Below are positions 42,044 to 64,000 of a DNA stretch of 64,000 nucleotides, piece by piece (the first letter of the stretch is position 1; each line of letters begins with the position of its first letter). This DNA is from Candidatus Methylomirabilota bacterium (GTDB lineage: Bacteria > Methylomirabilota > Methylomirabilia > Rokubacteriales > CSP1-6). A program made the translations under genes and the position numbers. The notes under the pieces were generated by a model. The model searched no databases, was not told the DNA's origin, and worked only from the letters and a program-made list of their open reading frames with translations. The stretch spans positions 63,118-127,117 of the forward strand of contig DATBIM010000053.1 of the NCBI GenBank assembly GCA_036556905.1, written 5' to 3'.

Positions 42044-42047
42044 TCCC

Positions 42048-47810: not shown

Positions 47811-47836
47811 GGAGGCGCCGGCGGGCCGCCGGCCGG

Positions 47837-47992
47837 CTAGCGGACGGGAGACTCCGTCGTTACGGGGCGGTTGGCGAAGCCGCGCTGTTCGAGGTACCGA
47901 TTCATCTCTGTCCCGAACAACCGATGCGCGGACGCCGCCCTGTCGAACACGATGTCCGCCAGAAGGACCACCATCCACTGGACGATCGCCAT
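47837..47992 (-). CDS. small protein between the two ATPase genes (hypothetical, 51 aa)
   Basis: The ATG at 47992 lies 7 nt after GGGAGGG. Sequence MAIVQWMVVLLADIVFDRAASAHRLFGTEMNRYLEQRGFANRPVTTESPVR. By hand count GC3 is about 86%, against about 55% for the overlapping ATPase-extension frame. Confidence 0.6.
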   Translation of the reverse strand: MAIVQWMVVLLADIVFDRAASAHRLFGTEMNRYLEQRGFANRPVTTESPVR

Positions 47993-48072
47993 CGGCCTGC
48001 CCTCCCTTCCCTGGTGGAGCACCCGACTTTCCGACTCCAGGGTACGGATCGAGCATGGCAGATCGATGACGA

Positions 48073-51794: not shown

Positions 51795-52586
51795 GTGAAC
51801 GACGACACGTATCCGCGATTTCGTTGGCTGGAGCGCGGTGAGGGCGAGCCGGTGGTGTTCCTGCACGGCCTCATGGGTCACATGCACTTCTGGGATACGA
51901 CGCTCGACATCCTGAGCGGCGGGTGTCGGGCGCTCGCGCCGACGCTTCCCGTCTTCGATGAGGATCTTCCCGAGGTGTCCATTGCCGAGCTGGCCCGCTG
52001 GGTGGTGCGTTTCCTCGACGCACTCAATCTGGGACGCGTCGTCCTGGGTGGCAACTCGCTGGGCGGTCACGTCGCCCTGGCCACCACCCTGGTCTTTCCC
52101 ACCCGAGTCGCGGGACTCGTCCTCACCGGTTCGTCGGGTCTCTTCGAGCGGGGCTTCACCCGCGAGGGCTCGCACCGCCCGTCCAGTGAGTACGTGCGGC
52201 GGAAGATGGAAGACGTGTTCTACGATCGGCGCCTGGTGACGCCCAATTGGGTGGAGGCCGTCCGCGGCACCCTCACGAACCGGGCGACCGCGCTCCGGGT
52301 GCTGCGCTTCGCCCGGGCGGCCAAGCGTGACAACGTGGGGCACGACCTGGGAGTGATCGACGTGCCGACGCTGCTGGTGTGGGGCGCCGAGGATCGCATC
52401 ACGCCGCCGGCCGTCGCCGGGCGCTTCGCCGCGCTCATCCCGAGTTCCCGGCTGGTGTTTTTGCGGCGGTGTGGCCACGCGCCCATGCTGGAGCAGCCGG
52501 AGGCGTTCGGCGCCGTGGTGCGGGCCTGGCTGGAGGATATGGCCCTCATCGGGAGCGGCGCTCTCCCTGACCACGGGCTTCGATGA
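51795..52586 (+). CDS. alpha/beta hydrolase
   Basis: VVFLHGL, nucleophile elbow GNSLGG, and C-terminal CGHAPMLEQPE. GTG follows GAGGAGGA. Confidence 0.9.
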   Translation: MNDDTYPRFRWLERGEGEPVVFLHGLMGHMHFWDTTLDILSGGCRALAPTLPVFDEDLPEVSIAELARWVVRFLDALNLGRVVLGGNSLGGHVALATTLVFPTRVAGLVLTGSSGLFERGFTREGSHRPSSEYVRRKMEDVFYDRRLVTPNWVEAVRGTLTNRATALRVLRFARAAKRDNVGHDLGVIDVPTLLVWGAEDRITPPAVAGRFAALIPSSRLVFLRRCGHAPMLEQPEAFGAVVRAWLEDMALIGSGALPDHGLR

Positions 52587-54082: not shown

Positions 54083-54120
54083 GGATCCCGGCTGACGGCG
54101 CCGGATCGGTTCGAACCGGC

Positions 54121-54498
54121 ATGCGCACACTGGCGTTGATCGCGCACGACAACAAAAAGGTGGATCTTCTCGCCTGGGCGACCTTCAACCGCGAGACCCT
54201 TGGCCGCTTCGGCCTGGTGGCGACCCGCCACACGGCGCGCGTGCTCCGCGACAAGGTAGGGCTCGAGACCGCAGAGCTGTTGAGCGGTCCCGAGGGAGGT
54301 GACGCCCAGATAGCCGCCCTGATCGCCACCGGGCAGGTGGACGCCGTCTTCTTCTTCGTGGACCCGTTGAGCGCGCTCCCGCACGACCCTGACGTGCGGG
54401 CCCTGCTCCGGGTCTGCAACGTCCACTGTGTGCCACTGGCGACGAACGTAGCGACGGCGGATCACATCATCGCCGGGCTCGGCGCCGAATGCCGGTGA
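54121..54498 (+). CDS. mgsA: methylglyoxal synthase
   Basis: LALIAHDNKK, SGPEGGDAQI, DPLSALPHDPDVRALLR, and PLATNVATAD all align to E. coli MgsA. The phosphate loop reads ATRHTA instead of ATGTTG. Confidence 0.9.
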   Translation: MRTLALIAHDNKKVDLLAWATFNRETLGRFGLVATRHTARVLRDKVGLETAELLSGPEGGDAQIAALIATGQVDAVFFFVDPLSALPHDPDVRALLRVCNVHCVPLATNVATADHIIAGLGAECR

Positions 54499-54581
54499 CC
54501 GGGTCGAACGTCACGCGTTCGTCATCATCGCGTAACACCGCGGCGGCAGGATTCCGGCTGACAGTTGGCCAAGGGGGCCGT

Positions 54582-55289
54582 GTGATCGAAGTGCTCGGAA
54601 TCGGCATCGCCGACGGCGCGACCGACTGGCTGATGCGTCGCGTGTGTGCCCGCATCAGCCCGGGCGCCCTGACGCTGGTAGTGTCCCCACGAGCCCAGGG
54701 GCGGCGGGCGTTCCTGGACGCGCTGGCCGGCCGCCGGGTGCCTCAAGAGGGACGGGTCTGGGTGAACGGGATCCCGGTGACGCGGGAGACCGCGGGCTGG
54801 CTCCGCCGGAGGGTCGCCGAGGTGGAGTTGTCGGCGCCGCTGCTCGAGCACCGGTCGCTGCTCTGGAATACGCTGGCCGTCGCCCCCCGTGGGCTCCGCA
54901 CGATGCGGGGCTGCATCCGCCTTCCTCAGCCGGCCGCTCGACGAGCGGCCGCGGCGGCTCTCGAGAGCGTTGAGCTTGGGGGCGACGTCGGCCAGCCCGT
55001 GTCTGCTCTGCCCGGGTGGGGACGCATGCATGTGCGGATCGCGCGCGCGCTCGCGCGCCGCCCGGAATGCCTGCTGGCCCGAGAGGTGGACCTGGCCCTG
55101 CCCGCGGAGGAGGCGCAGGCCGTCCTGACCCTGCTCCGCGGCGTGGCGCGCCGCCTGTCGCTCATGGCCATCGCCAGCGTGGAGGACGAGTGGCTGGCCC
55201 ATTGTGCCGGTGACCACGTGGTCACGCTGGACGGATGTGGCCTGGCCTCCACGGCGTTTGATCGACGCGATTCGGAGATCGGGGCCTAG
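54582..55289 (+). CDS. degenerate ABC-ATPase-like protein (all catalytic motifs eroded)
   Basis: ABC order is retained. Walker A is SPRAQGRRAF, the signature is LPGWGRMHVRIARAL, Walker B is CLLAREVD, and the H-loop is ASVED. GTG follows AAGGGGG. Confidence 0.5.
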   Translation: MIEVLGIGIADGATDWLMRRVCARISPGALTLVVSPRAQGRRAFLDALAGRRVPQEGRVWVNGIPVTRETAGWLRRRVAEVELSAPLLEHRSLLWNTLAVAPRGLRTMRGCIRLPQPAARRAAAAALESVELGGDVGQPVSALPGWGRMHVRIARALARRPECLLAREVDLALPAEEAQAVLTLLRGVARRLSLMAIASVEDEWLAHCAGDHVVTLDGCGLASTAFDRRDSEIGA

Positions 55290-57346
55290 CCGGAGGCGCG
55301 GAGGCCGCCGGCCAACTCGTACAGCCGTTCCTGGGAGCGGAGCGTGGGCGCGCCGTCGGCTCGGCGACGCTGGGAACTGCCCTCGGCGGTGATGATCCGC
55401 GCCTTCACCGTGTCAGCCAGCTGGATGGCCAGGATCTCGTCGATCTGGCGCTGCAGATCGGTGTCGAGGATCGGAAAGGCAATCTCGACCCGGTGATCGA
55501 AGTTGCGGGGCATCCAGTCCGCCGAGGCCAGCCAGTACTCGGGAATCCCGGCGTTGAGGAAGTAGAAGACCCGAGCGTGCTCCAGATACCGGTCGACGAT
55601 GGAGATGACCCGGATACGCTCGGAGAGGCCGGCCAGGCCCGGGCGCAGACAGCAGATCCCGCGGACGATGAGGTCGATCGTCACGCCGGCCTGGCTCGCC
55701 GCGTAGAGCTCGACGATGATCTCGGCGTCGACCAGGCTGTTCATCTTGGCCACGATGCGGGCGGGCCGCCCATTCCGCGCATGCTCGGCCTCACGGCGGA
55801 TGCGGGCCACCAGGCCCTCCCGCAGCGCGATCGGGGCCACCATCAGGTGGTGGAACAGGCGGGGGCGCGTGTAGCCGGTGAGCAGGTTGAAGAGCTCGGT
55901 GAGGTCCTCGCCAATCGTCTCCCGACAGGTCAGCAGCCCGAGATCGCTGTAGATGCCGCTCGTGCGGAGGTTGTAATTACCGGTGGCCAGGTGACAGTAA
56001 CGGCGGAGCCCATCATGCTCCTGCCGGACCACCAGGCAGGCTTTGCAGTGCGTCTTGTAGCCCACCAGCCCATAGACCACGTGCGCGCCGACCTCCTCCA
56101 GCGCCCGCGCCCATCGGATGTTCGCCTCCTCGTCGAAGCGCGCCTGCAGCTCGACGAGCACCGCGACCTCCTTGCCCTGCTCGGCGGCCAGGGTAAGCGC
56201 CTGGGCGATGGGCGAGGTCGGGCTCACCCGGTAGAGCGTCATCTTGATGGCGAGGACCTTGGGATCCAGGGCCGCCTCTCGGACGAAGCGGGTCACGACC
56301 TCGAAGGAGTGGTAGGGGTGGTGGATCAGGATGTCGCCGGCCCGGATGGCGCCCCAGATGTCGGGGGCGGCCTCGAGGGCGGGCAGGGGGTGGGGCGGCT
56401 GCGGGACATCCTTCAGCCGCGGCAGGTCCACCGCGGCGTAGAGCTGAAAGAGATCGGAGAAGGCCGTGAAGCCCTGACCGGCGAACAGATCGTCCCGGGT
56501 CAGCTCCAGCTCTTCCACGAGCGTGGCCAGGATGGCCGGCGGCAGATCGGGCTCGTACTGCAGGCGGACCGCGGTGCCCATGCGCCGTTCGCGCAGGCTC
56601 TCCTCCACGCTGGTGAGCAGACTGTCGGCCCGGGCCCGCGGGAGCTGCAGGTCGCCATCGCGGGTCACCCGAATGGCCTGGCAGGCCACGATCTGATAGC
56701 CGTGATAGAGCCGCGACAGGTGCAGCCGGATGACGTCCTCGAGGAGCATGAAGGCGTACTGCCCCGGCGGGGCCGGCACGGCCACGAACCGCGGCACCCC
56801 CGTGGGGATGTGGACCACGGCGAGGGTTGTGTGGGGCAAGGGCGAAGGCTCGGCCGGCTGCATCGACGCGACGAGGCAGAGGGCGCGATTGCCCAGGTGC
56901 GGGAAGGGATGGCCGGGATCGATGGCCAGCGGCGTCACCACGGGGAGCAGCGTCTGCCGAAAATACGTTTCCAGAAACTGCTCCTGTTCCGCGGTGAGGT
57001 CTTTGGCCCGAAGCAGGCTCACGCCCTCCAGGGCCAGCAGCGGCTGCAGCTCGTCGAGGAAGCAGCGGTGCTGCTCCTCCACCAGCGTGTGCACCCGGGC
57101 CGAGACGGCAGCCAGCGTCTCCGCTGGAGTGAGACCGTCGGGACCGGAGGCGGTCTCGCCGGCGTGGATCAGGCGCTTGAGAGAGGCCACCCGGACCATG
57201 AAGAACTCGTCGAGGTTCGCGCTGAAGATGGCCAGAAACTTCACCCGCTCGAGCAGCGGCACCCGGGGATCCTGGGCTTCTTCGAGGACCCGGCGGTTGA
57301 ACTCCAGCCAGGAGAGCTCGCGATTGACGAACTGCTCGCGACTCAT
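55286..57346 (-). CDS. ppk1: polyphosphate kinase 1
   Basis: FVNRELSWLEFNRRVLEEA...RVKFLAIFSANLDEFFMVRV, two PLD-like HKD regions, 686 aa. Confidence 0.95.
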   Translation of the reverse strand: MSREQFVNRELSWLEFNRRVLEEAQDPRVPLLERVKFLAIFSANLDEFFMVRVASLKRLIHAGETASGPDGLTPAETLAAVSARVHTLVEEQHRCFLDELQPLLALEGVSLLRAKDLTAEQEQFLETYFRQTLLPVVTPLAIDPGHPFPHLGNRALCLVASMQPAEPSPLPHTTLAVVHIPTGVPRFVAVPAPPGQYAFMLLEDVIRLHLSRLYHGYQIVACQAIRVTRDGDLQLPRARADSLLTSVEESLRERRMGTAVRLQYEPDLPPAILATLVEELELTRDDLFAGQGFTAFSDLFQLYAAVDLPRLKDVPQPPHPLPALEAAPDIWGAIRAGDILIHHPYHSFEVVTRFVREAALDPKVLAIKMTLYRVSPTSPIAQALTLAAEQGKEVAVLVELQARFDEEANIRWARALEEVGAHVVYGLVGYKTHCKACLVVRQEHDGLRRYCHLATGNYNLRTSGIYSDLGLLTCRETIGEDLTELFNLLTGYTRPRLFHHLMVAPIALREGLVARIRREAEHARNGRPARIVAKMNSLVDAEIIVELYAASQAGVTIDLIVRGICCLRPGLAGLSERIRVISIVDRYLEHARVFYFLNAGIPEYWLASADWMPRNFDHRVEIAFPILDTDLQRQIDEILAIQLADTVKARIITAEGSSQRRRADGAPTLRSQERLYELAGGLRASG

Positions 57347-58257
57347 GAGACGGGCGCTCGCCCCGCCGCGACCAGGAGCAGGCCGTCGCGGACGCCGCGC
57401 ATGCAGACGGTGAGGGCGGGATAGTCTCCGGAGAGCATCAGCTCCTCGACGATCAGCGCGCCGGCCACGATGATGTCGGCGCGCTCGGCCTTGAGGCCAG
57501 GCACCCGCCGCCGCTTGCGCAGGGGCAGGGCTTCGAGCCGGGCCCGGATCCGGGTGATGTCGTGCCGGCTGAGCCTGAGACCGTGACGCTCCCGGCGATG
57601 CCGACCGCTGAGGTGGATCGCCGCCAGGGCCCGCACGGTGCCGCCAAGCCCGACCAGGGTGGACCCCGGCTCCACGGGCGGTGACGCGGCGGCGAGCTGC
57701 TGACGGATCTCGTCGCGCAGCCTGGTGAGCTCTTGCCGGCGGGGCGGGTCATGGCGGAGAAAACGTCTCGTCGTGCGGACGACCCCCAGGGGGAAGCTGA
57801 CGGCGGCGTGGGGAAGGCCGTCCCGCACGTGGGTGAGCTGCAGGCTGCCCCCGCCGAGATCCATGACGACTCCGGCCCGGAAGCGCAGGCTCTCGAGCGC
57901 TGCCAGCGCCCCGAGGCGGGCTTCTTCGCAGCCGCTGAGCACGGCGACTTCCACACCGTGGCGGCGGCGTAGCGGCTCGAGCAGCCGATCCCGATTGCCC
58001 GCGTCGCGCACCGCCGAGGTCGCAATCGCCAGAACGCGGAGGGGCTGCCCGTTGCGCACCACGCGCAGGAAGCGGCGCACGGCGTCGAGCGTGTCGGCGA
58101 TCGCTTGCCGCGGCAAGCGGCCGGATCGGCCACCGCCGAGCCGGGTCTGGGCTCGCGCCTCGCGCAATATGCGTATGTGGCGGCCGGGACCGAGCTCGGC
58201 GAGCAGAAGCCGGACGGCGTTGGAGCCTAGGTCGACGAGCGCGACCTGCCCGGGCAT
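57343..58257 (-). CDS. ppx: Ppx/GppA family exopolyphosphatase
   Basis: VALVDLGSNAVRLLL, DLGGGS. ATGA overlaps ppk1. An alternative TTG start is at 58293. Confidence 0.9.
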   Translation of the reverse strand: MPGQVALVDLGSNAVRLLLAELGPGRHIRILREARAQTRLGGGRSGRLPRQAIADTLDAVRRFLRVVRNGQPLRVLAIATSAVRDAGNRDRLLEPLRRRHGVEVAVLSGCEEARLGALAALESLRFRAGVVMDLGGGSLQLTHVRDGLPHAAVSFPLGVVRTTRRFLRHDPPRRQELTRLRDEIRQQLAAASPPVEPGSTLVGLGGTVRALAAIHLSGRHRRERHGLRLSRHDITRIRARLEALPLRKRRRVPGLKAERADIIVAGALIVEELMLSGDYPALTVCMRGVRDGLLLVAAGRAPVS

Positions 58258-58317
58258 GCCCCTGAGTGTCGGAGCCGGCTCGGGGGCGGTCAAATCACAA
58301 AGCTGTTACAGCCTTGA

Positions 58318-58356
58318 TATCCACCGCTATCCACAGGCTTATGCGCAGCTATCCCC
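58318..58356. promoter_or_regulatory. phased direct repeats TATCCAC / TATCCAC / TATCCCC in the ppx-PHP divergent control region
   Basis: Copies start at 58318, 58328 and 58350 (offsets of 10 and 22 bp). They sit inside the most AT-rich intergenic stretch of the window (58294..58517). Confidence 0.35.
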
Positions 58357-58517
58357 AGCAACACAATATTTGCGGTGTCGTAATGCTGGAGTAACAAGAT
58401 ATTGTGGTACAGTGCCGCAGAATACAGCTCAAACGGATTGCGCGTTGAATAGCAAAGAGTTGGGTCCGGTGAATTGCGGTGGAGGACCGTGGAAAGAAGC
58501 ATGAGAGGAGGCGCCGG

Positions 58518-59300
58518 TTGAGGCGGATCGATACCCATACGCACCCCAAGATGTCCAAACACTTTCTCTTCGACTCCCGATCGCTCGATCGTATGGAACA
58601 GATGGCGCTCAAGATCGGGCTCGACGGCGTGGCGGTGACCGAGCACTTCCACGGCGTGGGCTTCTGGACGATCTACGATCACTTGCAGGCGACCCATCCG
58701 TACGAATACGGGTTGTTCTGGACGGGCCGACTGGCCTTGATCCCCGGGGCCGAGATCAACATCCGGGAAGGCGCCCACATCATCGTGCTCGGCGATGTGA
58801 GTGAGCTGCGTCGGCTCGACCGGGCGTTTCCGACTCCCCTGTCCCACGGCTATGAGCCAACGCTTCGGGAGTTTCTCGACGTCACCGACGACTTCGACGT
58901 CGTGCGGGTGGGCGCCCACATGTTTCGTCTCGGCAAAGAGCTGGGGAAATTCACCGCTGCCGACCTGCGGCGACTGCACGCGTTGGAGGTCAATGGCAAG
59001 GACTTCGGCACCGAAGTGATGTTGCTCGCCCAAGCGCGCGCCCTCGGCCTGCCCATCGTCGCGGGAAGCGACGCTCACCACTGGCTCCAGCTCGGCGTCC
59101 GCCACACACTCGTCCACACCGACGAGCTCACTCTGCGCTCCGTGCTCAAGGGAGTGAGAGAGGGCTTGACGGGGTTTGCGACGCGCCCCTATACTCCGCC
59201 CCGCGTCAAGGCCGCCAAGACCCTGAAAACTATTACGAAAATGTTACGAAAGTATTACGGCGGTCGCGCGGTGTCGGCAGCCACGTCGCTCGGCCGGTAG
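58518..59300 (+). CDS. PHP domain phosphoesterase
   Basis: The TTG at 58518 lies 6 nt after GAGAGGAGG. RIDTHTH metal motif, TEH, and GSDAHH. The ORF start GTG at 58479 is an alternative. Confidence 0.85.
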   Translation: MRRIDTHTHPKMSKHFLFDSRSLDRMEQMALKIGLDGVAVTEHFHGVGFWTIYDHLQATHPYEYGLFWTGRLALIPGAEINIREGAHIIVLGDVSELRRLDRAFPTPLSHGYEPTLREFLDVTDDFDVVRVGAHMFRLGKELGKFTAADLRRLHALEVNGKDFGTEVMLLAQARALGLPIVAGSDAHHWLQLGVRHTLVHTDELTLRSVLKGVREGLTGFATRPYTPPRVKAAKTLKTITKMLRKYYGGRAVSAATSLGR

Positions 59301-59380
59301 CAAAGCCGACGCACTGATCCCGAGCGCATCGCCGGCGGGTCCTCCGTCGGGCGACGGCCTGCGCCATCGGCGCTAGGCGG

Positions 59381-59704
59381 GTGGAGGGACGGGTGACAGG
59401 CGGCATTCCAGTGCGGTTCCGCGGGCGAGCCCGCCGGGACGCTGCAGCGTTCTACCTCTCGCAGCTCGCCAAGGGAGTTCTGTCGGGAGAGTTGGCGGTG
59501 GTGTCGGGTGAACAGGCCACATCGCTGGTAACCACCGAGTATCTGCTGCTGGACATCGAGGTGAAACAGAAGAAGCGGGCGAACCACGTCGCGATGAAGC
59601 TCCGCTGGCCGCGCCGGCCGCTCATTCGGGCTGGCGGAAAGTTTCGCTCGTCTGAGGCGGCCGCCGGGAACACTCACGAAGGGGGAGGGGATGGGGAATC
59701 GTGA
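59381..59704 (+). CDS. amphi-Trp domain protein 1 (divergent, basic)
   Basis: Ends the domain with HVAMKLRWPRR, parallel to KIEIAIAWKR and KIELQIGWKR in the next two genes. GC3 is about 76%. The start is uncertain. Confidence 0.6.
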   Translation: MEGRVTGGIPVRFRGRARRDAAAFYLSQLAKGVLSGELAVVSGEQATSLVTTEYLLLDIEVKQKKRANHVAMKLRWPRRPLIRAGGKFRSSEAAAGNTHEGGGDGES

Positions 59705-59942
59705 CGCGTTCGAGTTCGAGGGCATGGCGACACCGGGCGAGGCGGCCGACGCGCTGAACAGGATCGCCGAGGGGATCCGGGCCCGGTCGCTGTCGCTCTC
59801 CATGGGGGACGACGACATCGTGGTCTATCCCGACGGGGATCTATCGATGGAGATCGAGGCCAGCGACAAGAAGGGCAAGGCCAAGATCGAGATCGCCATC
59901 GCCTGGAAGCGCCGCTCACAGGGTGATGACGAGGACGAGTGA
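59691..59942 (+). CDS. amphi-Trp domain protein 2 (acidic C-terminal tail DDEDE)
   Basis: 83 aa. A 70-residue gapless alignment with protein 3 (DAFEFEGMATPGEA... versus DRFEFARIASPEEV..., ...GKAKIEIAIAWKR versus ...RKGKIELQIGWKR). Confidence 0.8.
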   Translation: MGNRDAFEFEGMATPGEAADALNRIAEGIRARSLSLSMGDDDIVVYPDGDLSMEIEASDKKGKAKIEIAIAWKRRSQGDDEDE

Positions 59943-59958
59943 GCGCTGAGGAGGAGCC

Positions 59959-60291
59959 ATGGCCAAGGATCGCTTCGAATTCGCCCGTATCGCCTCCCCG
60001 GAGGAGGTCGCCGAATACCTCACCTCCCTGGCCGTCGGGCTCAAGCGCGGCGACGTGAGCCTGGAGTCTGGAGACCGGAGTTTGCGGCTCAATCCCGGCT
60101 CCGAGGTGAAGCTCGAGTTGAAGGTCGGCCAGAAGGACCGCAAGGGCAAGATCGAGCTTCAGATCGGCTGGAAACGGCCGGCCGGCGCCCGCGCGGGCGA
60201 CCTGCGGGTCGCTGTCGGCCCGCGCCCGACAGAATCACGCCCGACAGAACCCAGCCCGCCGTCTCGGCGCCCCGCCCGCCGCACCGCCTAG
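59959..60291 (+). CDS. amphi-Trp domain protein 3 (Pro/Arg-rich C-terminal tail)
   Basis: ATG follows GAGGAGGAG. Paralogue of protein 2, with a 40-aa tail ...PRPTESRPTEPSPPSRRPARRTA. Confidence 0.8.
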   Translation: MAKDRFEFARIASPEEVAEYLTSLAVGLKRGDVSLESGDRSLRLNPGSEVKLELKVGQKDRKGKIELQIGWKRPAGARAGDLRVAVGPRPTESRPTEPSPPSRRPARRTA

Positions 60292-60308
60292 ACAGCGGTT
60301 GCCGGACG

Positions 60309-61922
60309 ATGGGTACCGTCCTGTTCGAGGACCTCGGGTCGGATCTCGCCCGCATGGCGAGGCTGGTGCAGTCGCAGCTCGTCGCCGCGATGACCGCCTT
60401 CTTCCGGCGCGACACCGCCCTGGCCGGCAAGGTGATCGGCAAGGACGATCACGTCGACAATCTCTTCGGCTTCATCGAGGAAAAGTGCTTCGAGCGCATC
60501 GCCGGCGAGCCCCCGGATAGCGCGCGATCGCGACGGCTGCGGGGCGTCTTCCGGGCGGCCCTGAGCCTCGAGAAGCTGGGCGACTACGCCGTGAGCATCG
60601 CCGAGCAGGCGGTGCACGCCTCCCGCCTGCCGCCGCGGCCGGCGCCCTTCGACCTGACCGGCCCCACGCGGGTGGCCCTGGCCGCCCTCGACGAGGTCAT
60701 CACCGCCTTCACTGACGCCAGCGCCGAGAAAGCCAAGCACGCCTGTCGTTGCGAGGTGGAGCTCGATCGGCAGTACCGGACGGCCCTGGCCGAAGCCTTT
60801 CAGCGGCTCGGCCGCGGTGAGGATCCGGCGTTCGTCGTCACCCATCTCTTCGTCGCGAAATTTCTCGAGCGGGTCGGTGACTCCATCCTGAACATCGGCG
60901 AGACCACGCTCTTCATTCTCACCGGCCAGCGACTCAAGCTCCACCAATACCTGCATCTCGAGGAGATGGTGGGCCCGGTAATCGCGACCCCCCAGGACCC
61001 GGTCGCCCTCGACGTCCGCCACATCTGGGGCGGCATCAGCGGCGCGCTGGTCAGTCGCCTGTCAGTGGCCGGGAGCAGCCCGCTCATCTGGAAGGAGGGG
61101 AGCGAGGGGAAGATCGACGAGGAGATCCGCCAGCTGCGGGAGTGGGACCGCATCGTGCCCGGCGTCGTGCCTGCGGTCAAGGCGGAGTATCACCACGAGG
61201 GCCGCGAGTCGTTCCTGGGACAGTTCCTGGACGGCATCCTGCTCCGTGACATCTACCTCACGCGGCCCTGGAAAGACAAGCTGCGGGCCACCCGGGCCCT
61301 GCTGGAAACGGTCCGCGACGTGTGGCTGGCCACCGTGCGCGAGGAACGCCCTCGCGTGGACTACGTCCACCAGATTCGCGAGCGCCTGCCCGAGCTCTAC
61401 ACGATGCACCCCGAGCTGGCCGCGCTCCGCGGCGGCGAGACGCGGATCTTCGGCATCGCGCATCCCTCGCTGGAGGTGCTGCTGGAGCACATGAGCCAGG
61501 CCGAGGCCGACCTGGCCCCTCCCGTCACCGTCCGCGTGCACGGGGACTTCAACACCAATAACCTCGTGTGGAACGAGCACGACGAGCGTGTGCACTTCAT
61601 CGACGTCCACCGCAGCGGGGATGGCGACTATCTTCAAGATATTGGGGTGTTGCTGATGTCCAACACCCGTACCCCGATCGAGGACCCGCGTGTAGTCGGT
61701 GAGCTCGAGCGGGTGAACCGGCTGGTGGAGGACTTCGCCGGCGAGTTTGCCCGGCGGATTGGCGATGAGTGGTACGGCGCGCGGCTCACGCTCTCCCAGG
61801 CGCGATCCCACATCACGTCGGCGCGGCTCGTGACCGATCCCGCGTTTGCCCGTGATCTCTATCTCAAGGGCGTGCGGCTGCTCGAGCGGGCCGTCGAGCT
61901 GGGTGGATGCGTGTCGCGGTGA
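60309..61922 (+). CDS. PhoU-domain / aminoglycoside-phosphotransferase-like kinase fusion protein
   Basis: The N-terminal 210 aa or so hold two PhoU repeats (DDHVDNLF..., KLGDYAVSIAEQA, EVELDRQYR, ERVGDSILNIGE). The C-terminus has the kinase catalytic loop VHGDFNTNNLVW and the metal-binding FIDVHRSGDGDYLQDIG. Confidence 0.85.
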   Translation: MGTVLFEDLGSDLARMARLVQSQLVAAMTAFFRRDTALAGKVIGKDDHVDNLFGFIEEKCFERIAGEPPDSARSRRLRGVFRAALSLEKLGDYAVSIAEQAVHASRLPPRPAPFDLTGPTRVALAALDEVITAFTDASAEKAKHACRCEVELDRQYRTALAEAFQRLGRGEDPAFVVTHLFVAKFLERVGDSILNIGETTLFILTGQRLKLHQYLHLEEMVGPVIATPQDPVALDVRHIWGGISGALVSRLSVAGSSPLIWKEGSEGKIDEEIRQLREWDRIVPGVVPAVKAEYHHEGRESFLGQFLDGILLRDIYLTRPWKDKLRATRALLETVRDVWLATVREERPRVDYVHQIRERLPELYTMHPELAALRGGETRIFGIAHPSLEVLLEHMSQAEADLAPPVTVRVHGDFNTNNLVWNEHDERVHFIDVHRSGDGDYLQDIGVLLMSNTRTPIEDPRVVGELERVNRLVEDFAGEFARRIGDEWYGARLTLSQARSHITSARLVTDPAFARDLYLKGVRLLERAVELGGCVSR

Positions 61923-62800
61923 TCGGCGTGCCGGGAGCCTGGTCGACCGAGCGGTTGGCCAGCGCGCTCGGGCAGGCCGGCGCCGACCCGCTGGTGGTGG
62001 ATCTCGCCGCCTGCAGCCTGCGCCTGCCCGATCCCCGCCTCTTCCATCAGGGCCGACCCGTCGAGGGACTGGCCGGGGCCCTGGTGAAGAAGATCGGCGA
62101 CACGGCGGAGGGGCCAGGGGTGATCCAGCGTCTCAACCTGCTCCACCACCTGGAGCGGACCGGCGTACCGGTCCTGAGCCCGCCGGGTCGGCTGGAGGTC
62201 GCCGCCAACCGCTATCGGATGACGCTGGAGCTGGCCCGGGCGGGTGTTCCCCTTCCTGACACGCTGGTGACCGAGGATCCCGCCGAGGCCGAGGCTGCGG
62301 TGGAGCGGTTCGGGGCGGCCGTGGTGAAGCCGCTCTACACCTCCAAGGGCCGGGGGATGCAGCGGGTGGATCCCAGCCTCGATCTCCGGGCCTTCTTCGC
62401 GCGCTGGCGACACGAGACCGGTCCCATCTATCTCCAGCGCTTCATCAAGCATCCCGGCCGTGACCTCGGACTCGCCGTGCTCGAGGGCAAGTGCCTGGGG
62501 GCGTACTGGCGGGTTGCCCGTGACGATCAATGGATGACGACGATCCATTCGGGGGGCCGTTACGAGGCTGCGGAGCCGGGATCCGAAGCCATTGAGATCG
62601 CGCTCCGGGCGGCCGGGCACTTCGGCCTCCTCTTCACCGGCGTCGATCTGATGGAGACGCCCGAGGGCGGCTGGGTGGTGCTGGAGGTGAGCGCCTTCGG
62701 CGGGTTCCGCGGGCTCCTCGCGGCGCACGGAATCGACGCGGCGCCGGCTCTGGCGGGGGCTGCGCTCAACCGCTTCGGGCGCCGCCGCCCCTCGCCGTGA
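61907..62800 (+). CDS. RimK-like ATP-grasp ligase (GAK-system type)
   Basis: VVKPLYTSKGRGM, IYLQRFI, and GVDLMETPEGGWVVLEVSAFGGF. 16-nt overlap with the upstream gene. Confidence 0.9.
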   Translation: MRVAVIGVPGAWSTERLASALGQAGADPLVVDLAACSLRLPDPRLFHQGRPVEGLAGALVKKIGDTAEGPGVIQRLNLLHHLERTGVPVLSPPGRLEVAANRYRMTLELARAGVPLPDTLVTEDPAEAEAAVERFGAAVVKPLYTSKGRGMQRVDPSLDLRAFFARWRHETGPIYLQRFIKHPGRDLGLAVLEGKCLGAYWRVARDDQWMTTIHSGGRYEAAEPGSEAIEIALRAAGHFGLLFTGVDLMETPEGGWVVLEVSAFGGFRGLLAAHGIDAAPALAGAALNRFGRRRPSP

Positions 62801-63846
62801 CCGACCTCCACGCGCTCGGCCGCGGGGTGCCGACGCCCTACGTGCTCTCGCTCCGCTTCGTCGACGTTCCCCTGCGGGTTCGCACCAACGATGCCGACGT
62901 ATGGGCGAGTCTCGGACACTACTTCGAGCCCTGGGTGACGCCGGGCGATGCTGCTCCGGTGGCGGTGGTGACCCTCGTCCAGGGTCATCCGCGCCCGGAG
63001 GGAACGTTCGCCGACGTGGCCCGCCGCGACGGGAAGGCGGTGAAGGAAGCGGTGCGGCTCGAACCGCACGGGCGGCTCATCCTCAAGCGTCGCACCGGAG
63101 TGCTCATGGGGCTCGCGCCGGGTCGTGCCGTCGCCGTGGGGGACCTCCGGGCCAACCTGAATCAGGCGATCAACCTGGTCAACGCCTGTTACGCCAAGGC
63201 CGTGGTCGAGCGCGGCTACCTGCTGCTTCACGCCTCGGCGGTGGCGAAGGGCCAGGATGTCGTGGCCCTGGCCGGGGTGCCCGGCGCCGGCAAGTCTACG
63301 GCGGCGCTCCACCTCGTCGAGGCCGGCTTTCGCTTCGTGTCCAATGACCGCCTGCTCGTCCGCGCGACCCCCGGGGGCGTCGACGCGTTGGGCTACCCCA
63401 AGCAGCCGCGGGTCAACCCGGGAACCGTGCTTCACCATCCCCGGCTCGCGGCGCGACTCAAGCCCGAGGAGCGGCAGGCGCTGGCCGCGATGGAACCGGC
63501 GTCGCTCTGGGGCCTCGAGCGGAAATGCGACGTCGATCTCGATGCGCTCTACGGGCGGGGGACAGTGGTGTTGCGCGGCAGGCTGCGGGTCCTCGTGCTC
63601 CTGCGCTGGAGGCTGGGCGGCGACGGTTTCGCGGTGCGGCCGATCGCCGGCGCCGCCGCCCTGAGCCAGCTCGACCTCTTCGCCAAGGACCTTGGCGTGT
63701 TCGATCTGGACCAGGCGCCCGGCGCTCCCCGTGACGCGGAGGCCTCGGCCAGGTACGCGAGGCTACTCGACTGCCTGCACGTGCTCGACGTGACGGGCCG
63801 ACCCGATTTCCCGGCCCTGGTGGGCGTCGTGCGCGGATTGCTGTAA
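62797..63846 (+). CDS. HprK-related P-loop kinase (kinase B type)
   Basis: LLLHASAV followed by the P-loop LAGVPGAGKSTAAL and FVSNDRLLV, as in the HprK/P C-terminal domain. GTGA overlaps the ATP-grasp stop. Confidence 0.85.
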   Translation: MTDLHALGRGVPTPYVLSLRFVDVPLRVRTNDADVWASLGHYFEPWVTPGDAAPVAVVTLVQGHPRPEGTFADVARRDGKAVKEAVRLEPHGRLILKRRTGVLMGLAPGRAVAVGDLRANLNQAINLVNACYAKAVVERGYLLLHASAVAKGQDVVALAGVPGAGKSTAALHLVEAGFRFVSNDRLLVRATPGGVDALGYPKQPRVNPGTVLHHPRLAARLKPEERQALAAMEPASLWGLERKCDVDLDALYGRGTVVLRGRLRVLVLLRWRLGGDGFAVRPIAGAAALSQLDLFAKDLGVFDLDQAPGAPRDAEASARYARLLDCLHVLDVTGRPDFPALVGVVRGLL

Positions 63847-64000
63847 CCGGGCGGGGCCGAGGCCGCTCGTCCGGCTGGTAACGGAAGATTTACTCGCCCG
63901 TCATTGACTGTTAACGCTGGAGTCGGACTCTGGGTCCGTGGCGAAGACGACGGGAGAGGTGGGTCGGCAGCCCGGGCGGACGCCCGCTCCCCAGCGTCTC

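What the first reader, a model, noticed from the sequence alone, without database searches (positions are those of the whole stretch)
58518..63846. Tightly coupled GAK-type locus of unknown function: PHP, three amphi-Trp proteins, PhoU-kinase fusion, ATP-grasp, HprK-related kinase
Seven co-directional genes are packed with overlaps of 14, 16 and 4 nt and with short gaps of 16-17 nt between some neighbours, so they look like one operon.

The combination of a RimK-like ATP-grasp enzyme, small amphi-Trp domain proteins and an HprK-related P-loop kinase matches what I recall as the 'GAK system'. That system was defined only by comparative genomics, through TIGRFAM-type models for the amphi-Trp domain, HprK-related kinase B, GAK ATP-grasp, GAK CofD-like and GAK XXXCH proteins (accessions roughly TIGR04354-TIGR04358, from memory). 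No biochemical function has been assigned to it.

Every recognisable domain here handles phosphate or ATP: PHP phosphoesterase, PhoU, an APH-like kinase, ATP-grasp, and an HprK-like kinase/phosphorylase. The locus is also divergent from ppx-ppk1.

Working hypothesis: the amphi-Trp proteins are substrates or carriers that get phosphorylated and/or C-terminally ligated, as part of a phosphate or polyphosphate status pathway. The CofD-like and XXXCH members are not visible and may lie beyond position 64000.
Basis: partly seen in the sequence, partly recalled or inferred. Interest (0 to 1): 0.9.

Follow-up and report, generated by a model that had tools for sequence, protein, structure and literature searches.

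The report
Phosphate-linked GAK-type small-protein modification locus
Seven tightly packed genes (three small "amphi-Trp" proteins, two kinases, an ATP-grasp ligase and a PHP metalloenzyme) form an undescribed variant of the uncharacterised "GAK system" that sits inside the phosphate-starvation gene neighbourhood of a Rokubacteria-like soil bacterium, which gives a first testable clue to what this system does.

Summary
Seven co-directional genes lie at 58518-63846 with exactly the stated overlaps and gaps.

HMM scans confirm:
- amphi-Trp x3 and HprK-related kinase B, above cut-off;
- GAK ATP-grasp, 281.5 bits against a cut-off of 300, but it keeps all the family's invariant residues;
- a PhoU+APH kinase fusion and a PHP-family protein.

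The locus is a variant of the GAK system.
- The PhoU-kinase -> ATP-grasp -> HprK-B core is conserved in 29 of 30 loci from five lineages.
- The CofD-like member is absent here. In 13 Rokubacteria and 2 Chloroflexi genomes a PHP enzyme takes its place, and no locus has both.
- CofD-like/XXXCH genes do not lie past position 64000. By synteny, a phoB-like regulator and pstSCAB-phoU follow.

New findings:
- Phased GT(A/T)AC repeats like Pho boxes precede PHP, the regulator gene and pstS.
- A second conserved promoter-like site is embedded in the 3' end of PHP.
- The three amphi-Trp paralogues (basic, acidic, mildly basic) occur naturally fused.
- PHP plus the three enzymes come and go as one module around a constant amphi-Trp trio-regulator-pst scaffold.
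- ppx/ppk1 recur upstream.

The biochemical mechanism is still inferred: covalent modification of the amphi-Trp trio, tied to phosphate status.

The parts
58318..58356 (+). Three T(A/G)TCC(A/C)C repeats: TATCCAC at 58318, TATCCAC at 58328 and CTATCCCC at 58349. They lie upstream of the PHP promoter.
   Evidence: The repeats are conserved in related loci. In loci that lack the enzyme genes they lie directly upstream of aT1. The factor that binds them is unknown.
58358..58413 (+). Pho-box-like element: four units phased at 11 bp (GCAAC-N6-TTTGC-N6-GTAAT-N6-GTAAC, 58358-58395), then 12 nt, then the -10-like hexamer TACAGT (58408-58413). Predicted promoter P1 for PHP.
   Evidence: A weight matrix trained only on sites upstream of the regulator gene and pstS ranks 58369-58395 fifth of 127,948 positions in the window, with a score of 16.85. 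Shuffled sequences give 0.03 sites at or above 16.8. The same architecture is conserved in 10 related loci, where it ranks 4th to 14th of about 40,000 positions. T109, A110 and T114 of the -10-like hexamer are invariant.
58469..58493 (-). Three GTG(A/G)A repeats at 10-nt spacing. This is the same motif as at 58318-58356 but on the opposite strand, between promoter P1 and the ribosome-binding site.
   Evidence: The repeats are conserved as GTGGAT(A/G)AC-GGTGGA in relatives.
58518..59300 (+). PHP-family metalloenzyme of 260 aa, with the HxH motif in IDTHTHP.
   Evidence: Pfam PHP_C scores 31.1 bits (cut-off 21.3); Pfam PHP scores 17.7, below its cut-off. The best solved relative is PsfC (7rty), E 5.8e-13 over residues 3-197. 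PHP is present with the PhoU-kinase in 44 of 44 metagenome loci informative on both sides, and absent where the enzymes are absent.
59166..59195 (+). Sigma-70-like promoter P2 (TTGACG-18 nt-TATACT) embedded in the 3' end of the PHP gene.
   Evidence: 10 of 12 matches. TTGAC and TA.ACT are invariant in 8 loci despite the rare codons they impose. The same GGCTTGACGGGC...TACACTCC sequence lies in intergenic DNA ahead of aT1 in L040 and L100, which have no PHP gene.
59232..59258 (.). Phased triple repeat ATTAC-N6-GTTAC-N6-ATTAC (GTAAT/GTAAC on the minus strand). It lies 37-63 nt downstream of the -10 of promoter P2 and 123 nt upstream of aT1.
   Evidence: This is the best-scoring site in the whole 64-kb window: 25.2, against a maximum of 18.7 in 30 shuffles. 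It is the top hit at the same relative position in 9 of 11 related loci. It uses codons that are rare in this high-GC sequence (TTA, CGA, ATT). L100 retains it without a PHP gene. Its role, activator site or roadblock, is unresolved.
59381..59704 (+). aT1: basic amphi-Trp paralogue (pI 10.4, charge about +7), with the conserved tail motif RWP.RPLIR. The likely start is 59393.
   Evidence: TIGR04354 scores 31.1 bits, right at the cut-off of 31. Orthologues are aligned and charges computed. It occurs naturally fused to aT2: P0242, P0244, P0246-P0249.
59691..59942 (+). aT2: acidic amphi-Trp paralogue (pI 4.4, charge about -9.5) with a poly-Asp/Glu C-terminal tail.
   Evidence: TIGR04354 scores 56.4 bits. 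Of 113 orthologues, 100 end in Asp or Glu. It occurs fused to aT3 (P0241, P0243) and in a triple fusion (P0274).
59959..60291 (+). aT3: the amphi-Trp paralogue closest to the single amphi-Trp protein of classical GAK loci. It carries the conserved ..GWKR..(D/E)L(R/H)V.. segment. The window copy has an extra Pro/Ser/Thr/Arg-rich tail: 110 aa against 91-93 aa in relatives.
   Evidence: TIGR04354 scores 58.8 bits. Alignment. The AlphaFold2 model (mean pLDDT 68.7) shows one helix packed on a four-stranded antiparallel sheet. Foldseek finds no PDB match with E below 1.
60309..61922 (+). Fusion of two PhoU repeats (residues about 7-220) with an APH/choline-kinase-type kinase (about 226-537). The catalytic motifs HGDFNTNN and FIDVHRSGDGDY are present.
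   Evidence: Pfam PhoU scores 106.6 bits in 2 stretches and APH scores 37.1. TIGR02135 scores 110.6, below its cut-off of 130.25. The PhoU part matches solved PhoU structures (1t72, E 3.9e-21). A profile of the kinase part matches APH(3') best (4feu, E 7.5e-8). The fusion is present in 29 of 30 GAK loci.
61907..62800 (+). GAK-type ATP-grasp ligase of the RimK/LysX/MptN clade.
   Evidence: TIGR04356 scores 281.5 bits (cut-off 300), MptN 178.7 and the RimK family 125.6. The nearest solved proteins are LysX/ArgX/RimK. All 49 columns invariant across seven GAK ATP-grasp proteins from Rokubacteria, Chloroflexi, Thermodesulfobacteriota, Myxococcales, Rhodobacteraceae and one unclassified Proteobacteria contig are kept, including the signature EVSAFGG.
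62797..63846 (+). HprK-related kinase B: a P-loop kinase with Walker A motif GVPGAGKS and the conserved SNDR segment.
   Evidence: TIGR04355 scores 257.7 bits (cut-off 200). A profile hits HPr kinase/phosphorylase 1jb1 at E 1.3e-4, over the P-loop region only. 302 homologues were found, many labelled HprK-related kinase B.
63878..63931 (+). Pho-box-like element ahead of the next gene: GTAAC-N6-TTTAC-N6-GTCAT-N6-TTAAC (63878-63915), then 10 nt, then GACTCT (63926-63931).
   Evidence: It is conserved as TTTAC-N6-GTCAT-N6-GTAAC...GACACT in 6 loci. It was used, together with the pstS sites, to train the matrix.
63938..64000 (+). Start of an OmpR/PhoB-type response regulator gene, which runs off the end of the window.
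   Evidence: Identical short contigs extend it to VAKTT...RVLVVEDEPDVAELL.... The orthologue in L007 hits TIGR02154 PhoB best, at 261.7 bits against a cut-off of 296.2, and is followed by pstS, pstC, pstA, pstB and phoU.

Best explanation
This is a PHP-type variant of the GAK system, built into the phosphate (Pho) gene neighbourhood of a Rokubacteria/Methylomirabilota-like bacterium.

**Hub.** The centre of the system is a trio of paralogous amphi-Trp small proteins: aT1 (basic), aT2 (acidic, with a poly-Asp/Glu tail) and aT3. They act together as one complex. Together with a phoB-like regulator and pstSCAB-phoU, they form a constant scaffold.

**Enzyme module.** Four enzymes come and go as one unit around this scaffold: PHP, the PhoU-domain-gated APH-type kinase, the RimK/LysX-type ATP-grasp ligase and the HprK-like kinase.

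Inferred mechanism: these enzymes covalently modify the trio.
- One or both kinases phosphorylate it. HprK-B would act as HPr kinase and the lasso-peptide kinases do, on a small protein's Ser.
- The PhoU module would tie the APH-type kinase to phosphate status.
- The ATP-grasp adds an amino acid, probably Glu, to a carboxylate.
- The PHP metalloenzyme removes or processes the modification.

**Regulation.** Transcription is predicted to be under PhoB-type control through phased GT(A/T)AC boxes.

**Shown versus inferred.** Shown: gene content, conservation, modularity, natural fusions and the DNA motifs. Inferred: which protein is the substrate, the chemistry, and the response to phosphate.
For: **Identity**
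- HMM scores.
- The core order PhoU-kinase -> ATP-grasp -> HprK-B is found in 29 of 30 loci from Rokubacteria, Chloroflexi, Thermodesulfobacteriota, Myxococcales and Rhodobacteraceae.

**Hub and complex**
- The order aT1-aT2-aT3 is invariant in 80 metagenome loci.
- Natural fusions exist: aT1-aT2, aT2-aT3 and a triple fusion.
- The charges are complementary.

**Amphi-Trp as the enzymes' partner or substrate**
- An amphi-Trp gene is found in nearly every GAK locus with enough flanking sequence.
- The GAK-type calcineurin-like phosphoesterase is fused to an amphi-Trp domain in P0345 and P0405. P0345 is 41% identical to the L032 protein.
- HPr-kinase homologues phosphorylate the C-terminal Ser of small peptides (PMC8498205). 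The classical GAK amphi-Trp proteins end in ...I-x-S.
- The nearest solved relatives of the ATP-grasp act on protein C-termini, those of S6 and LysW (PMC10375531, PMC12998189, both listed).
- Of 113 aT2 orthologues, 100 end in Asp or Glu.

**Module behaviour**
- PHP upstream together with PhoU-kinase downstream: 44 loci. Mixed cases: 0.
- The amphi-Trp trio is followed directly by the regulator in 5 metagenome loci, and also in L040-L042.

**Phosphate link**
- phoB-like regulator plus pstSCAB-phoU lie downstream in 11 of 13 genomes.
- ppx/ppk1 lie upstream in at least 10 loci.
- A phn C-P lyase operon lies upstream in L008 and L009.
- A matrix trained only on the regulator and pstS sites finds its best untrained hits in the window at 59232, 54510 and 58369. 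Five sites score at or above 16.8, against 0.03 expected.
Against: - No experiment exists for any GAK component. Literature searches found nothing.
- No Ser or Thr is conserved across all amphi-Trp proteins.
- The acidic tail is specific to aT2 of Rokubacteria. It is internal in the aT2-aT3 fusions. The ATP-grasp is 39-41% identical across variants whose amphi-Trp proteins have no such tail.
- The APH-type kinase matches small-molecule kinases best. The ATP-grasp scores higher against MptN than against RimK or LysX. The closest solved relative of PHP, PsfC, is an oxidase acting on a small phosphonate. The CofD-like member of classical loci belongs to a family of small-molecule enzymes.
- The amphi-Trp trio occurs without adjacent enzymes, so it has a role that does not need them in cis.
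- The Pho-box reading rests on analogy. No binding or expression data exist.
- The site at 59232 has no -10-like hexamer after it.
- The structure models are of modest confidence (pLDDT 68.7 and 49.7).
Confidence: 0.45

Rival explanations
1. Carrier-protein pathway of the LysW type. An amphi-Trp protein serves as a covalent carrier: the ATP-grasp ligates a small amino or carboxy compound to it, the kinases and the PHP enzyme transform that compound, and it is then released. The end product is a free metabolite made under phosphate stress, not a modified regulatory protein.
For: - The ATP-grasp is closest to LysX/ArgX among solved structures. In that system LysX loads the carrier LysW and a kinase acts next (PMC12998189, listed).
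- This model reconciles the small-molecule-type enzyme families (APH, PsfC-like PHP, CofD-like) with an obligatory small protein.
- aT2 has an acidic C-terminus, as LysW does.
- A phosphoesterase-amphi-Trp fusion exists.
Against: - No reductase, aminotransferase or releasing hydrolase of the kind seen in LysW pathways is present.
- The trio occurs without the enzymes next to pst.
- The aT2 tail is internal in aT2-aT3 fusions and absent in classical GAK loci.
- Three distinct paralogues forming a complex is unlike a simple carrier.
Confidence: 0.2
2. Free small-molecule pathway. The enzymes act on a soluble organophosphate, phosphonate or cofactor-like compound (phosphorylation, glutamylation, oxidative or hydrolytic processing). 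The amphi-Trp proteins are not substrates; they are binding, regulatory or scaffolding partners.
For: - The kinase domain matches APH(3') best, and Pfam also hits EcKL and choline kinase in relatives.
- The ATP-grasp scores 178.7 bits against MptN and also hits CofF.
- PHP is closest to PsfC of fosfomycin biosynthesis.
- Classical loci carry a CofD-like protein, a histidine phosphatase and a metallophosphoesterase.
- Chloroflexi loci add a phosphomannomutase-like gene.
- C-P lyase genes lie upstream in L008 and L009.
Against: - HprK-family kinases with known substrates act on proteins or peptides.
- Amphi-Trp genes accompany the enzymes in essentially every locus and are fused to one of the phosphoesterases.
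- No PEP mutase or other committed biosynthetic gene was noted among the genes annotated in these loci, but none was specifically searched for.
Confidence: 0.2
3. Signalling accessory of the Pst/PhoB circuit. The PhoU domain docks the kinase on PstB or on a PhoR-type sensor, as PhoU does. The system's real target would be the adjacent PhoB-like regulator, which has no neighbouring sensor kinase, or the transporter itself. The amphi-Trp proteins would serve as adaptors.
For: - The PhoU part is close to genuine PhoU: 110.6 bits against TIGR02135, and E 3.9e-21 against 1t72.
- The regulator next to the locus has no adjacent histidine kinase.
- An amphi-Trp + receiver-domain fusion exists (P0374).
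- The trio-regulator-pst adjacency is the most constant feature.
Against: - Classical GAK loci in Rhodobacteraceae, Myxococcales and Thermodesulfobacteriota have the same core with no pst or phoB genes nearby.
- In Rhodobacteraceae the PhoU part is barely recognisable.
- A separate complete phoU follows pstB.
- A pit-phoB-phoR set exists elsewhere in the window.
- This model leaves the ATP-grasp and PHP without a role.
Confidence: 0.1
4. The genes are merely neighbours and have no common function.
For: None beyond the lack of experimental data.
Against: The order is conserved across five lineages, in 13 species-level genomes and in dozens of metagenome contigs. Start and stop codons overlap. 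The genes are gained and lost as a module. Natural gene fusions link the members.
Confidence: 0.01

Closest known systems
GAK system (TIGR04354 amphi-Trp, TIGR04355 HprK-related kinase B, TIGR04356 GAK ATP-grasp, TIGR04357 GAK CofD-like). Defined by comparative genomics only.
   Same: The window has amphi-Trp proteins, HprK-related kinase B and the GAK-type ATP-grasp in the same order as classical loci. It also has the PhoU-APH kinase, which is present in 29 of 30 loci.
   Different: - No CofD-like protein, histidine phosphatase or calcineurin-like phosphoesterase. A PHP-family enzyme is present instead, and the two sets are mutually exclusive in 30 loci.
- Three specialised amphi-Trp paralogues rather than one or two.
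- Embedded between ppx-ppk1 and phoB-like-pstSCAB-phoU, with Pho-box-like sites.
- The ATP-grasp scores 18.5 bits below the model's cut-off.
RimK (S6 C-terminal glutamate ligase) and LysX/ArgX with the carrier protein LysW
   Same: The ATP-grasp fold and clade are the same. These are the nearest solved structures, with E 7.5e-18 to 8.5e-15. In both systems a small protein with an acidic C-terminus is encoded next to the ligase.
   Different: - Scores are far below the family cut-offs (RimK family 125.6 against 143.4; LysX 106.8 against 275.6).
- The Mg-site motif E-V-N reads E-V-S in all seven GAK ligases aligned, which represent both variants.
- Amphi-Trp is unrelated to S6 or to the zinc-ribbon protein LysW.
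- No downstream LysZ/Y/J/K-type enzymes are present.
HPr kinase/phosphorylase and the HPr-kinase homologues of lasso-peptide clusters
   Same: The P-loop kinase core is the same; HprK/P is the top PDB hit for the family profile (E 1.3e-4). These enzymes have small protein or peptide substrates. The lasso-peptide kinases modify a C-terminal Ser, and classical GAK amphi-Trp proteins end in I-x-S.
   Different: - Only about 47 residues around the P-loop align.
- TIGR00679 scores 21.6 bits against a cut-off of 240.
- The N- and C-terminal regions are unrelated to HprK/P.
- No HPr or lasso-peptide genes are present.
- The Rokubacteria amphi-Trp proteins lack the terminal Ser.
PhoU (phosphate signalling complex protein)
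   Same: Two PhoU repeats with the E/D-xxx-D and ER.GD...NI.E motifs. The domain matches solved PhoU structures. It lies in the neighbourhood of pstSCAB.
   Different: It is fused to an APH-type kinase. It scores below the equivalog cut-off (110.6 against 130.25). A separate genuine phoU follows pstB in relatives.
PsfC (PHP-fold dinuclear iron enzyme of fosfomycin biosynthesis, PDB 7rty)
   Same: It is the closest solved homologue of the PHP protein, E 5.8e-13 over about 195 residues, with the metal-ligand motifs aligned.
   Different: The match is only 52 bits. No PEP mutase or phosphonomethylmalate synthase was seen nearby, so an orthologous reaction is unlikely. The comparison mainly warns that 'phosphoesterase' is an assumption.

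Membership tests
GAK system | Amphi-Trp domain protein (TIGR04354, cut-off 31 bits) | tested here: met
   Scores are 31.1 bits (aT1, marginal), 56.4 (aT2) and 58.8 (aT3). Pfam PF20068 scores 40.2 and 45.6 for aT2 and aT3; aT1 scores 16.6, below the cut-off.
GAK system | HprK-related kinase B (TIGR04355, cut-off 200 bits) | tested here: met
   257.7 bits over residues 9-342.
GAK system | GAK ATP-grasp enzyme (TIGR04356, cut-off 300 bits) | tested here: inconclusive
   281.5 bits: the best hit by 100 bits, but below the cut-off. Orthology is supported by conserved position and by retention of all 49 invariant columns, including EVSAFGG. A classical-locus protein scores 426.5.
GAK system | GAK CofD-like protein (TIGR04357) | tested here: not met
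   tblastn finds no match anywhere in the 64-kb window. None lies within 10 kb in 13 Rokubacteria and 2 Chloroflexi loci, whereas 12 classical loci have it. A genuine one (373 bits) lies near an amphi-Trp trio in the enzyme-less locus L042.
   None of the window proteins or the classical-locus proteins scanned hit such a model. Whether the model is in the library used could not be checked.
GAK system | PhoU-like + APH-type kinase fusion directly upstream of the ATP-grasp. This is not part of the formal definition, but it was found here to be universal. | tested here: met
   Present in 29 of 30 loci in the same position. Pfam PhoU and APH hits are found in the window and in the Thermodesulfobacteriota, Chloroflexi and Rhodobacteraceae proteins.
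RimK family alpha-L-glutamate ligase | Score at or above the family cut-off (TIGR00768, 143.4 bits) and a demonstrated glutamate-ligase reaction | tested here: not met
   125.6 bits. The Pfam RimK domain is present at 57.9 bits. The reaction cannot be tested with these tools.
HPr kinase/phosphorylase | TIGR00679 at or above 240 bits, and HPr as substrate | tested here: not met
   21.6 bits. Only the P-loop region aligns to solved HprK/P.
PhoU (stand-alone phosphate signalling protein) | TIGR02135 at or above 130.25 bits; a protein of about 220 aa | tested here: not met
   110.6 bits, and the domain is fused to a kinase of about 310 aa. The domain itself is clearly present (Pfam 106.6 bits).
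Pho regulon member | PhoB-type binding site (direct repeats phased at 11 bp, placed at -35) upstream of the gene | tested here: met
   A site at 58358-58395 followed by a -10-like hexamer was found with a matrix trained on other promoters. It ranks 5th in the 64-kb window and is conserved in relatives. That these repeats are the PhoB site in this phylum is itself an inference, drawn from their position ahead of pstS and the phoB-like gene and their likeness to the E. coli CTGTCAT box (own knowledge).
Pho regulon member | Induction on phosphate limitation, dependent on the regulator | not testable with these tools
   This needs expression or binding data.

The most novel reading that the evidence does not exclude
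The amphi-Trp trio is a previously unrecognised protein component of bacterial phosphate homeostasis. It would be a charge-complementary small-protein complex that works with the Pst transporter, the PhoB circuit and polyphosphate enzymes. Its state would be written by a dedicated machine of two kinases, a ligase and a metalloenzyme. For example, reversible (poly)phosphorylation or glutamylation could store, buffer or report phosphate. The HprK-like enzyme could exchange phosphate with pyrophosphate, as HPr kinase/phosphorylase does. If so, the whole GAK family would be a new kind of protein-based phosphate-status switch.
Probability: 0.2. Interest if true: 0.85.

Novelty: new variant of a known kind. 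Interest (0 to 1): 0.65.

Why it matters
The GAK system and the amphi-Trp domain have existed only as database models with no assigned function. The paper searches run here found no functional study of them.

This locus supplies the first contextual handle.
- In an abundant but uncultured soil phylum, the system is wired into the phosphate-starvation gene set: polyphosphate enzymes on one side, a PhoB-like regulator and the high-affinity phosphate transporter on the other.
- It shares regulatory DNA motifs with those genes.
- The small proteins turn out to be the constant element, and the enzymes are an add-on module.

That turns 'unknown function' into concrete experiments: phosphate-dependent expression, mass changes on three small proteins, and binding of one regulator to three mapped sites.

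It also flags that the PhoU domain can be used as an input module for a kinase.

Tried and rejected
- **Rfam.** No known RNA family matched the conserved 5' region 58200-58600 (E up to 5) or the whole window at gathering thresholds. The CACAATAT/ATATTGTG inverted repeat at 58363-58405 was considered as an RNA stem or palindromic operator. It was set aside because relatives show mismatches without compensation, and the same bases are explained by the phased GT(A/T)AC units.\n- **tRNA scan.** No tRNA genes.\n- **Structure.** The aT2-aT3 fusion model was too poor to say how the domains pack (pLDDT 49.7). The aT3 model found no PDB fold match with E below 1, and the amphi-Trp profile found no solved homologue.\n- **TRTCCAC repeats as the Pho box.** Rejected because they are absent upstream of the regulator gene and pstS.\n- **Synonymous-site conservation at 59219-59261.** It is raised (0.75 against a gene mean of 0.60), but other stretches of the gene reach the same level, so it is not decisive on its own.\n- **Defence system.** No PADLOC hit for any of the seven proteins.\n- **Phosphonate biosynthesis.** Suggested by the PsfC hit, but considered unlikely because no PEP mutase was noted among the genes annotated in these loci. 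It was not specifically searched for.\n- **Exact-match contig look-up.** For the window's HprK-B this gave only contigs of 3.5 kb or less.\n- **Literature.** Searches for the GAK system, amphi-Trp, HprK-related kinase and the domain combination gave nothing functional.

Full report
**1. What is in the sequence**

On the + strand the ORF list gives seven co-directional genes:
- PHP, 58518-59300. The ORF opens at 58479, but GAGGAGG at 58505-58511 followed by TTG 58518 is conserved in relatives.
- aT1, 59381-59704. GTG 59393 is the more likely start.
- aT2, 59691-59942.
- aT3, 59959-60291.
- A 537-aa PhoU-kinase fusion, 60309-61922.
- An ATP-grasp, 61907-62800.
- An HprK-like kinase, 62797-63846.

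The only larger gap is 80 nt, between PHP and aT1. ppx (57343-58293) and ppk1 (55286-57346) are divergent from the locus.

**2. Domain identities**

NCBIfam and Pfam give the following.

| Protein | Result |
|---|---|
| aT1, aT2, aT3 | TIGR04354 amphi-Trp at 31.1, 56.4 and 58.8 bits (cut-off 31) |
| HprK-like kinase | TIGR04355 HprK-related kinase B at 257.7 bits (cut-off 200) |
| ATP-grasp | TIGR04356 GAK ATP-grasp at 281.5 bits (cut-off 300); next best MptN 178.7, RimK family 125.6, LysX 106.8 |
| PhoU-kinase fusion | Two PhoU repeats (Pfam 106.6 bits; TIGR02135 110.6 against 130.25) plus an APH-type kinase (37.1 bits) |
| PHP | PHP_C at 31.1 bits |

The ATP-grasp misses its cut-off. However, it keeps every column that is invariant across seven GAK ATP-grasp proteins from six lineage groups, including the signature EVSAFGG, in which the usual Mg-binding Asn is Ser.

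**3. Origin and what lies beyond the window**

Homologues of HprK-B are common in soil metagenomes and in MAGs named Rokubacteria, Rokuibacteriota or Methylomirabilota. The window, at about 69% G+C, most likely comes from that phylum.

Identical short contigs show that the gene starting at 63938 encodes an OmpR/PhoB-type response regulator. In longer related contigs the seven-gene set is followed by that regulator, pstS, pstC, pstA, pstB and phoU. The regulator's best NCBIfam hit is PhoB, at 261.7 bits against a cut-off of 296.2.

**4. Comparative anatomy**

One scan of species-representative genomes with an HprK-B alignment returned 30 loci. Searching their ORFs with the window proteins, and with proteins identified in the other loci, shows a universal core in fixed order in 29 of 30 loci: PhoU-APH kinase, ATP-grasp, HprK-B.

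Around that core there are two mutually exclusive accessory sets.
- **Classical loci** (Rhodobacteraceae, Myxococcales, Thermodesulfobacteriota). These have the GAK CofD-like protein (TIGR04357, 465-521 bits). Most also have a histidine phosphatase and a 438-aa calcineurin-like phosphoesterase. They carry one or two amphi-Trp genes.
- **The window type** (13 Rokubacteria and 2 Chloroflexi loci). These have a PHP protein instead and none of the other three. Rokubacteria have three amphi-Trp genes and Chloroflexi have one.

No locus has both PHP and CofD-like. The window itself has no CofD-like, histidine-phosphatase or metallophosphoesterase homologue anywhere in its 64 kb.

**5. The amphi-Trp trio**

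The three paralogues are each well conserved and distinct.
- **aT1** is basic (pI about 10.4) and carries RWP.RPLIR.
- **aT2** is acidic (pI 4.4) and carries a variable poly-Asp/Glu tail. Of 113 orthologues, 100 end in Asp or Glu.
- **aT3** resembles the single classical amphi-Trp protein and keeps a (D/E)L(R/H)V segment after the invariant Trp.

Natural fusions exist for aT1-aT2 (six proteins, one of which, P0245, looks like a frameshift artefact), for aT2-aT3 (two) and for all three in order (P0274). This argues that they work as one complex.

A profile search of 1.84 billion representative proteins found 1,456 amphi-Trp clusters, mostly stand-alone proteins of 80-130 aa. Two of the hits (P0345, P0405) are the GAK-type calcineurin-like phosphoesterase with a C-terminal amphi-Trp domain. 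P0345 is 41% identical to the Celeribacter protein. Another hit (P0374) is an amphi-Trp domain plus a receiver domain.

AlphaFold2 gives aT3 a helix packed on a four-stranded antiparallel sheet (pLDDT 68.7). The fusion model was poor. Neither Foldseek nor a sequence profile finds a solved relative. In the one paper that mentions the domain, an amphi-Trp protein is among the 20 most abundant proteins of Dissulfuribacter thermophilus (PMC13490349).

**6. Modularity**

Eighty metagenome loci were retrieved with aT2 alone. All show the order aT1-aT2-aT3.
- Where both flanks are informative, PHP lies upstream and the PhoU-kinase downstream in 44 loci.
- At least one locus has neither: the trio is followed directly by the regulator, with no PHP.
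- No locus is mixed.

Counting only the downstream side, the PhoU-kinase follows in 54 loci and the regulator follows directly in 5. Three further contigs (L040-L042) show an aT1-aT2 fusion, aT3, the regulator and pst with no enzymes. One of them has a genuine GAK CofD-like gene 2 kb away (373 bits).

So PHP plus the three enzymes behave as one four-gene module that is present or absent around a constant scaffold of trio, regulator and pst.

Upstream, ppx and/or ppk1 recur in at least 10 loci in either orientation. A degenerate ABC-ATPase-like gene recurs in 17 metagenome loci, and an OlsH-like gene in 5. L008 and L009 have C-P lyase genes there.

**7. Regulatory DNA**

Upstream of the regulator gene and of pstS, relatives share three or four units of consensus GT(A/T)AC phased at 11 bp. 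Examples are TTTAC-N6-GTCAT-N6-GTAAC and GTAAC-N6-GTTAT-N6-GCAAC. A -10-like hexamer follows 10-13 nt later. This is the architecture of a Pho box. From my own knowledge, the E. coli box is two CTGTCAT repeats 11 bp apart that replace the -35 element.

A weight matrix was built only from those regulator and pstS sites and then scanned over the window.
- It found five sites scoring at or above 16.8, where shuffled sequences give 0.03.
- Two of the five are the trained regulator site.
- The other three are 59232-59258 (25.2, the best in the 64 kb), 54510-54536, and 58369-58395 (16.85), which lies 149 nt before the PHP start.

The PHP-upstream site is really four phased units (58358-58395) followed by TACAGT (58408-58413). 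It is conserved in ten relatives.

The 59232 site lies inside the 3' end of PHP, 37-63 nt after the -10 of a near-consensus promoter-like site, TTGACG-18 nt-TATACT at 59166-59195. The hexamers of that site are invariant in eight loci despite unusual codons. The same promoter-like sequence, and in L100 also the repeats, occurs in non-coding DNA ahead of aT1 in loci that lack PHP.

I therefore read the locus as having two promoters.
- **P1** lies ahead of PHP, with a Pho-box layout. Induction by phosphate limitation is inferred.
- **P2** lies ahead of the amphi-Trp genes, with phased boxes in its early transcribed region. Their effect is unknown.

A second, unrelated repeat brackets P1: T(A/G)TCCAC at 58318-58356 and its complement at 58469-58493. 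It is conserved, also in the enzyme-less loci, but is absent from the regulator and pstS promoters. It remains unexplained.

**8. What the enzymes resemble**

- **HprK-B** shares only the P-loop region with HPr kinase/phosphorylase. HPr-kinase homologues in lasso-peptide clusters phosphorylate, even repeatedly, the C-terminal Ser of the precursor peptide (PMC8498205). The classical amphi-Trp proteins end in ...I-x-S, but the Rokubacteria ones do not.
- **The ATP-grasp** is closest among solved structures to LysX/ArgX and RimK, which act on the C-termini of LysW and S6. By HMM score, however, it is nearer to MptN, a small-molecule ligase.
- **The kinase domain** of the fusion matches APH(3') best (E 7.5e-8).
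- **PHP** matches PsfC best (7rty, E 5.8e-13). PsfC is a dinuclear iron enzyme that converts 2-phosphonomethylmalate to 3-oxo-4-phosphonobutanoate (PMC12871164). Calling PHP a phosphoesterase is therefore an assumption.
- None of the seven proteins matches a defence-system model.

**9. Interpretation**

- **Secure:** this is a conserved functional unit and a variant of the GAK system, physically integrated into phosphate-related genes.
- **Well supported:** the amphi-Trp trio is the hub and the four enzymes are a facultative module.
- **Supported by motif analysis only:** Pho-type regulation.
- **Inferred:** the enzymes covalently modify the trio.

For that inference:
- universal co-occurrence of amphi-Trp genes with the enzymes;
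- the phosphoesterase-amphi-Trp fusions;
- HprK and RimK/LysX precedents for small-protein substrates;
- the acidic tail of aT2.

Against it:
- the tail is lineage-specific and internal in the aT2-aT3 fusions;
- there is no universal Ser or Thr;
- several of the enzymes belong to small-molecule families;
- the trio occurs without the enzymes.

I give the modification-of-the-hub model 0.45. A LysW-like carrier pathway gets 0.2, a free small-molecule pathway 0.2, a pure signalling accessory 0.1, and chance adjacency about 0.01.

**10. Novelty and verdict**

The kind of system is already catalogued, as NCBIfam/TIGRFAM models, but it has never been characterised. No functional study turned up in the paper searches run here.

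The following appear to be undescribed:
- the window's PHP-type architecture;
- the triplicated, charge-complementary, fusion-linked amphi-Trp set;
- the finding that the PhoU-kinase fusion is a universal core gene;
- the modular relation to a trio-phoB-pst scaffold;
- the shared Pho-box-like motifs.

I rate it a new variant of a known kind, with interest 0.65. It is not a surprise in kind, but it makes an orphan system directly testable.

Noticed in passing
window 40260-43856 (+): A second phosphate set lies here: a PHO4/Pit-family phosphate transporter (40260-41336), a PhoB-like response regulator (41357-42043, 53% identical to the regulator next to pst in L007), and a HAMP-PAS histidine kinase (42015-43856). 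The window therefore encodes two PhoB-like regulators, one with a sensor kinase and one (from 63938) without.
   Followed up: partly
window 54489-55289 (+), site at 54510-54536: A degenerate ABC-ATPase-like ORF (best hit PhnC, only 50.7 bits) carries a high-scoring Pho-box-like site, GTCAC-N6-GTCAT-N6-GTAAC (20.4), at its annotated start, so the real start is probably further downstream. Homologues recur just upstream of PHP in 8 genome loci and 17 metagenome loci. In five of the genome loci they have a similar TTCAC-N6-GTCAT-N6-GTAAC site.
   Followed up: partly
window 52583-54498 (+): An OlsH-like GH3 protein (lyso-ornithine lipid synthetase model, 416.6 bits, cut-off 620) lies next to methylglyoxal synthase. 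OlsH-like genes recur upstream of the locus in 7 other loci. A phosphorus-free lipid enzyme next to Pho genes would fit phosphate sparing.
   Followed up: partly
window 58318-58356 and 58469-58493: T(A/G)TCCAC repeats on one strand and their complement on the other bracket the PHP promoter. They are conserved across Rokubacteria loci, including those without the enzymes, but are absent from the pstS and regulator promoters. The binding factor is unknown.
   Followed up: partly
window 60180-60291 (C-terminus of aT3): The window's aT3 has an extra Pro/Ser/Thr/Arg-rich tail of about 18 residues (…PRPTESRPTEPSPPSRRPARRTA) that the 91-93-aa orthologues lack. It could be a real extension or a shifted stop codon.
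   Followed up: no
P0345, P0405, P0374, P0274: Amphi-Trp domains occur fused to the GAK-type calcineurin-like phosphoesterase, to a response-regulator receiver domain, and to each other as a triple repeat. P0283 joins an amphi-Trp domain to UPF0758_N/Pvc16_N-like regions, though the amphi-Trp hit there is below Pfam's cut-off (23.7 bits against 27).
   Followed up: partly
L042 5641-6759 (-): A genuine GAK CofD-like gene (373 bits, cut-off 340) lies about 2 kb from an enzyme-less amphi-Trp trio, regulator and pst set, next to ANTAR and Ppx-GppA fragments and a PAS histidine kinase. CofD-like genes can therefore pair with amphi-Trp genes without the kinases or the ATP-grasp.
   Followed up: partly
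L021 10998-12455 and L022 (Chloroflexi): In the two Chloroflexi PHP-type loci the cassette is followed by a phosphomannomutase/phosphoglucomutase-like gene (405.6 bits against PgmG, below its cut-off). In L021 it is preceded by PstS-like and regulator genes.
   Followed up: no
L032 13607-17747 (Celeribacter halophilus): Downstream of the classical GAK locus are ORFs whose N-termini look like ATP-synthase subunits. This was judged by eye only and no HMM was run.
   Followed up: no
window 44853-48056 (-): A large P-type cation ATPase with an HMA_2 domain. A P-type ATPase also lies a few kb upstream of the cassette in the contig that carries P0003.
   Followed up: no
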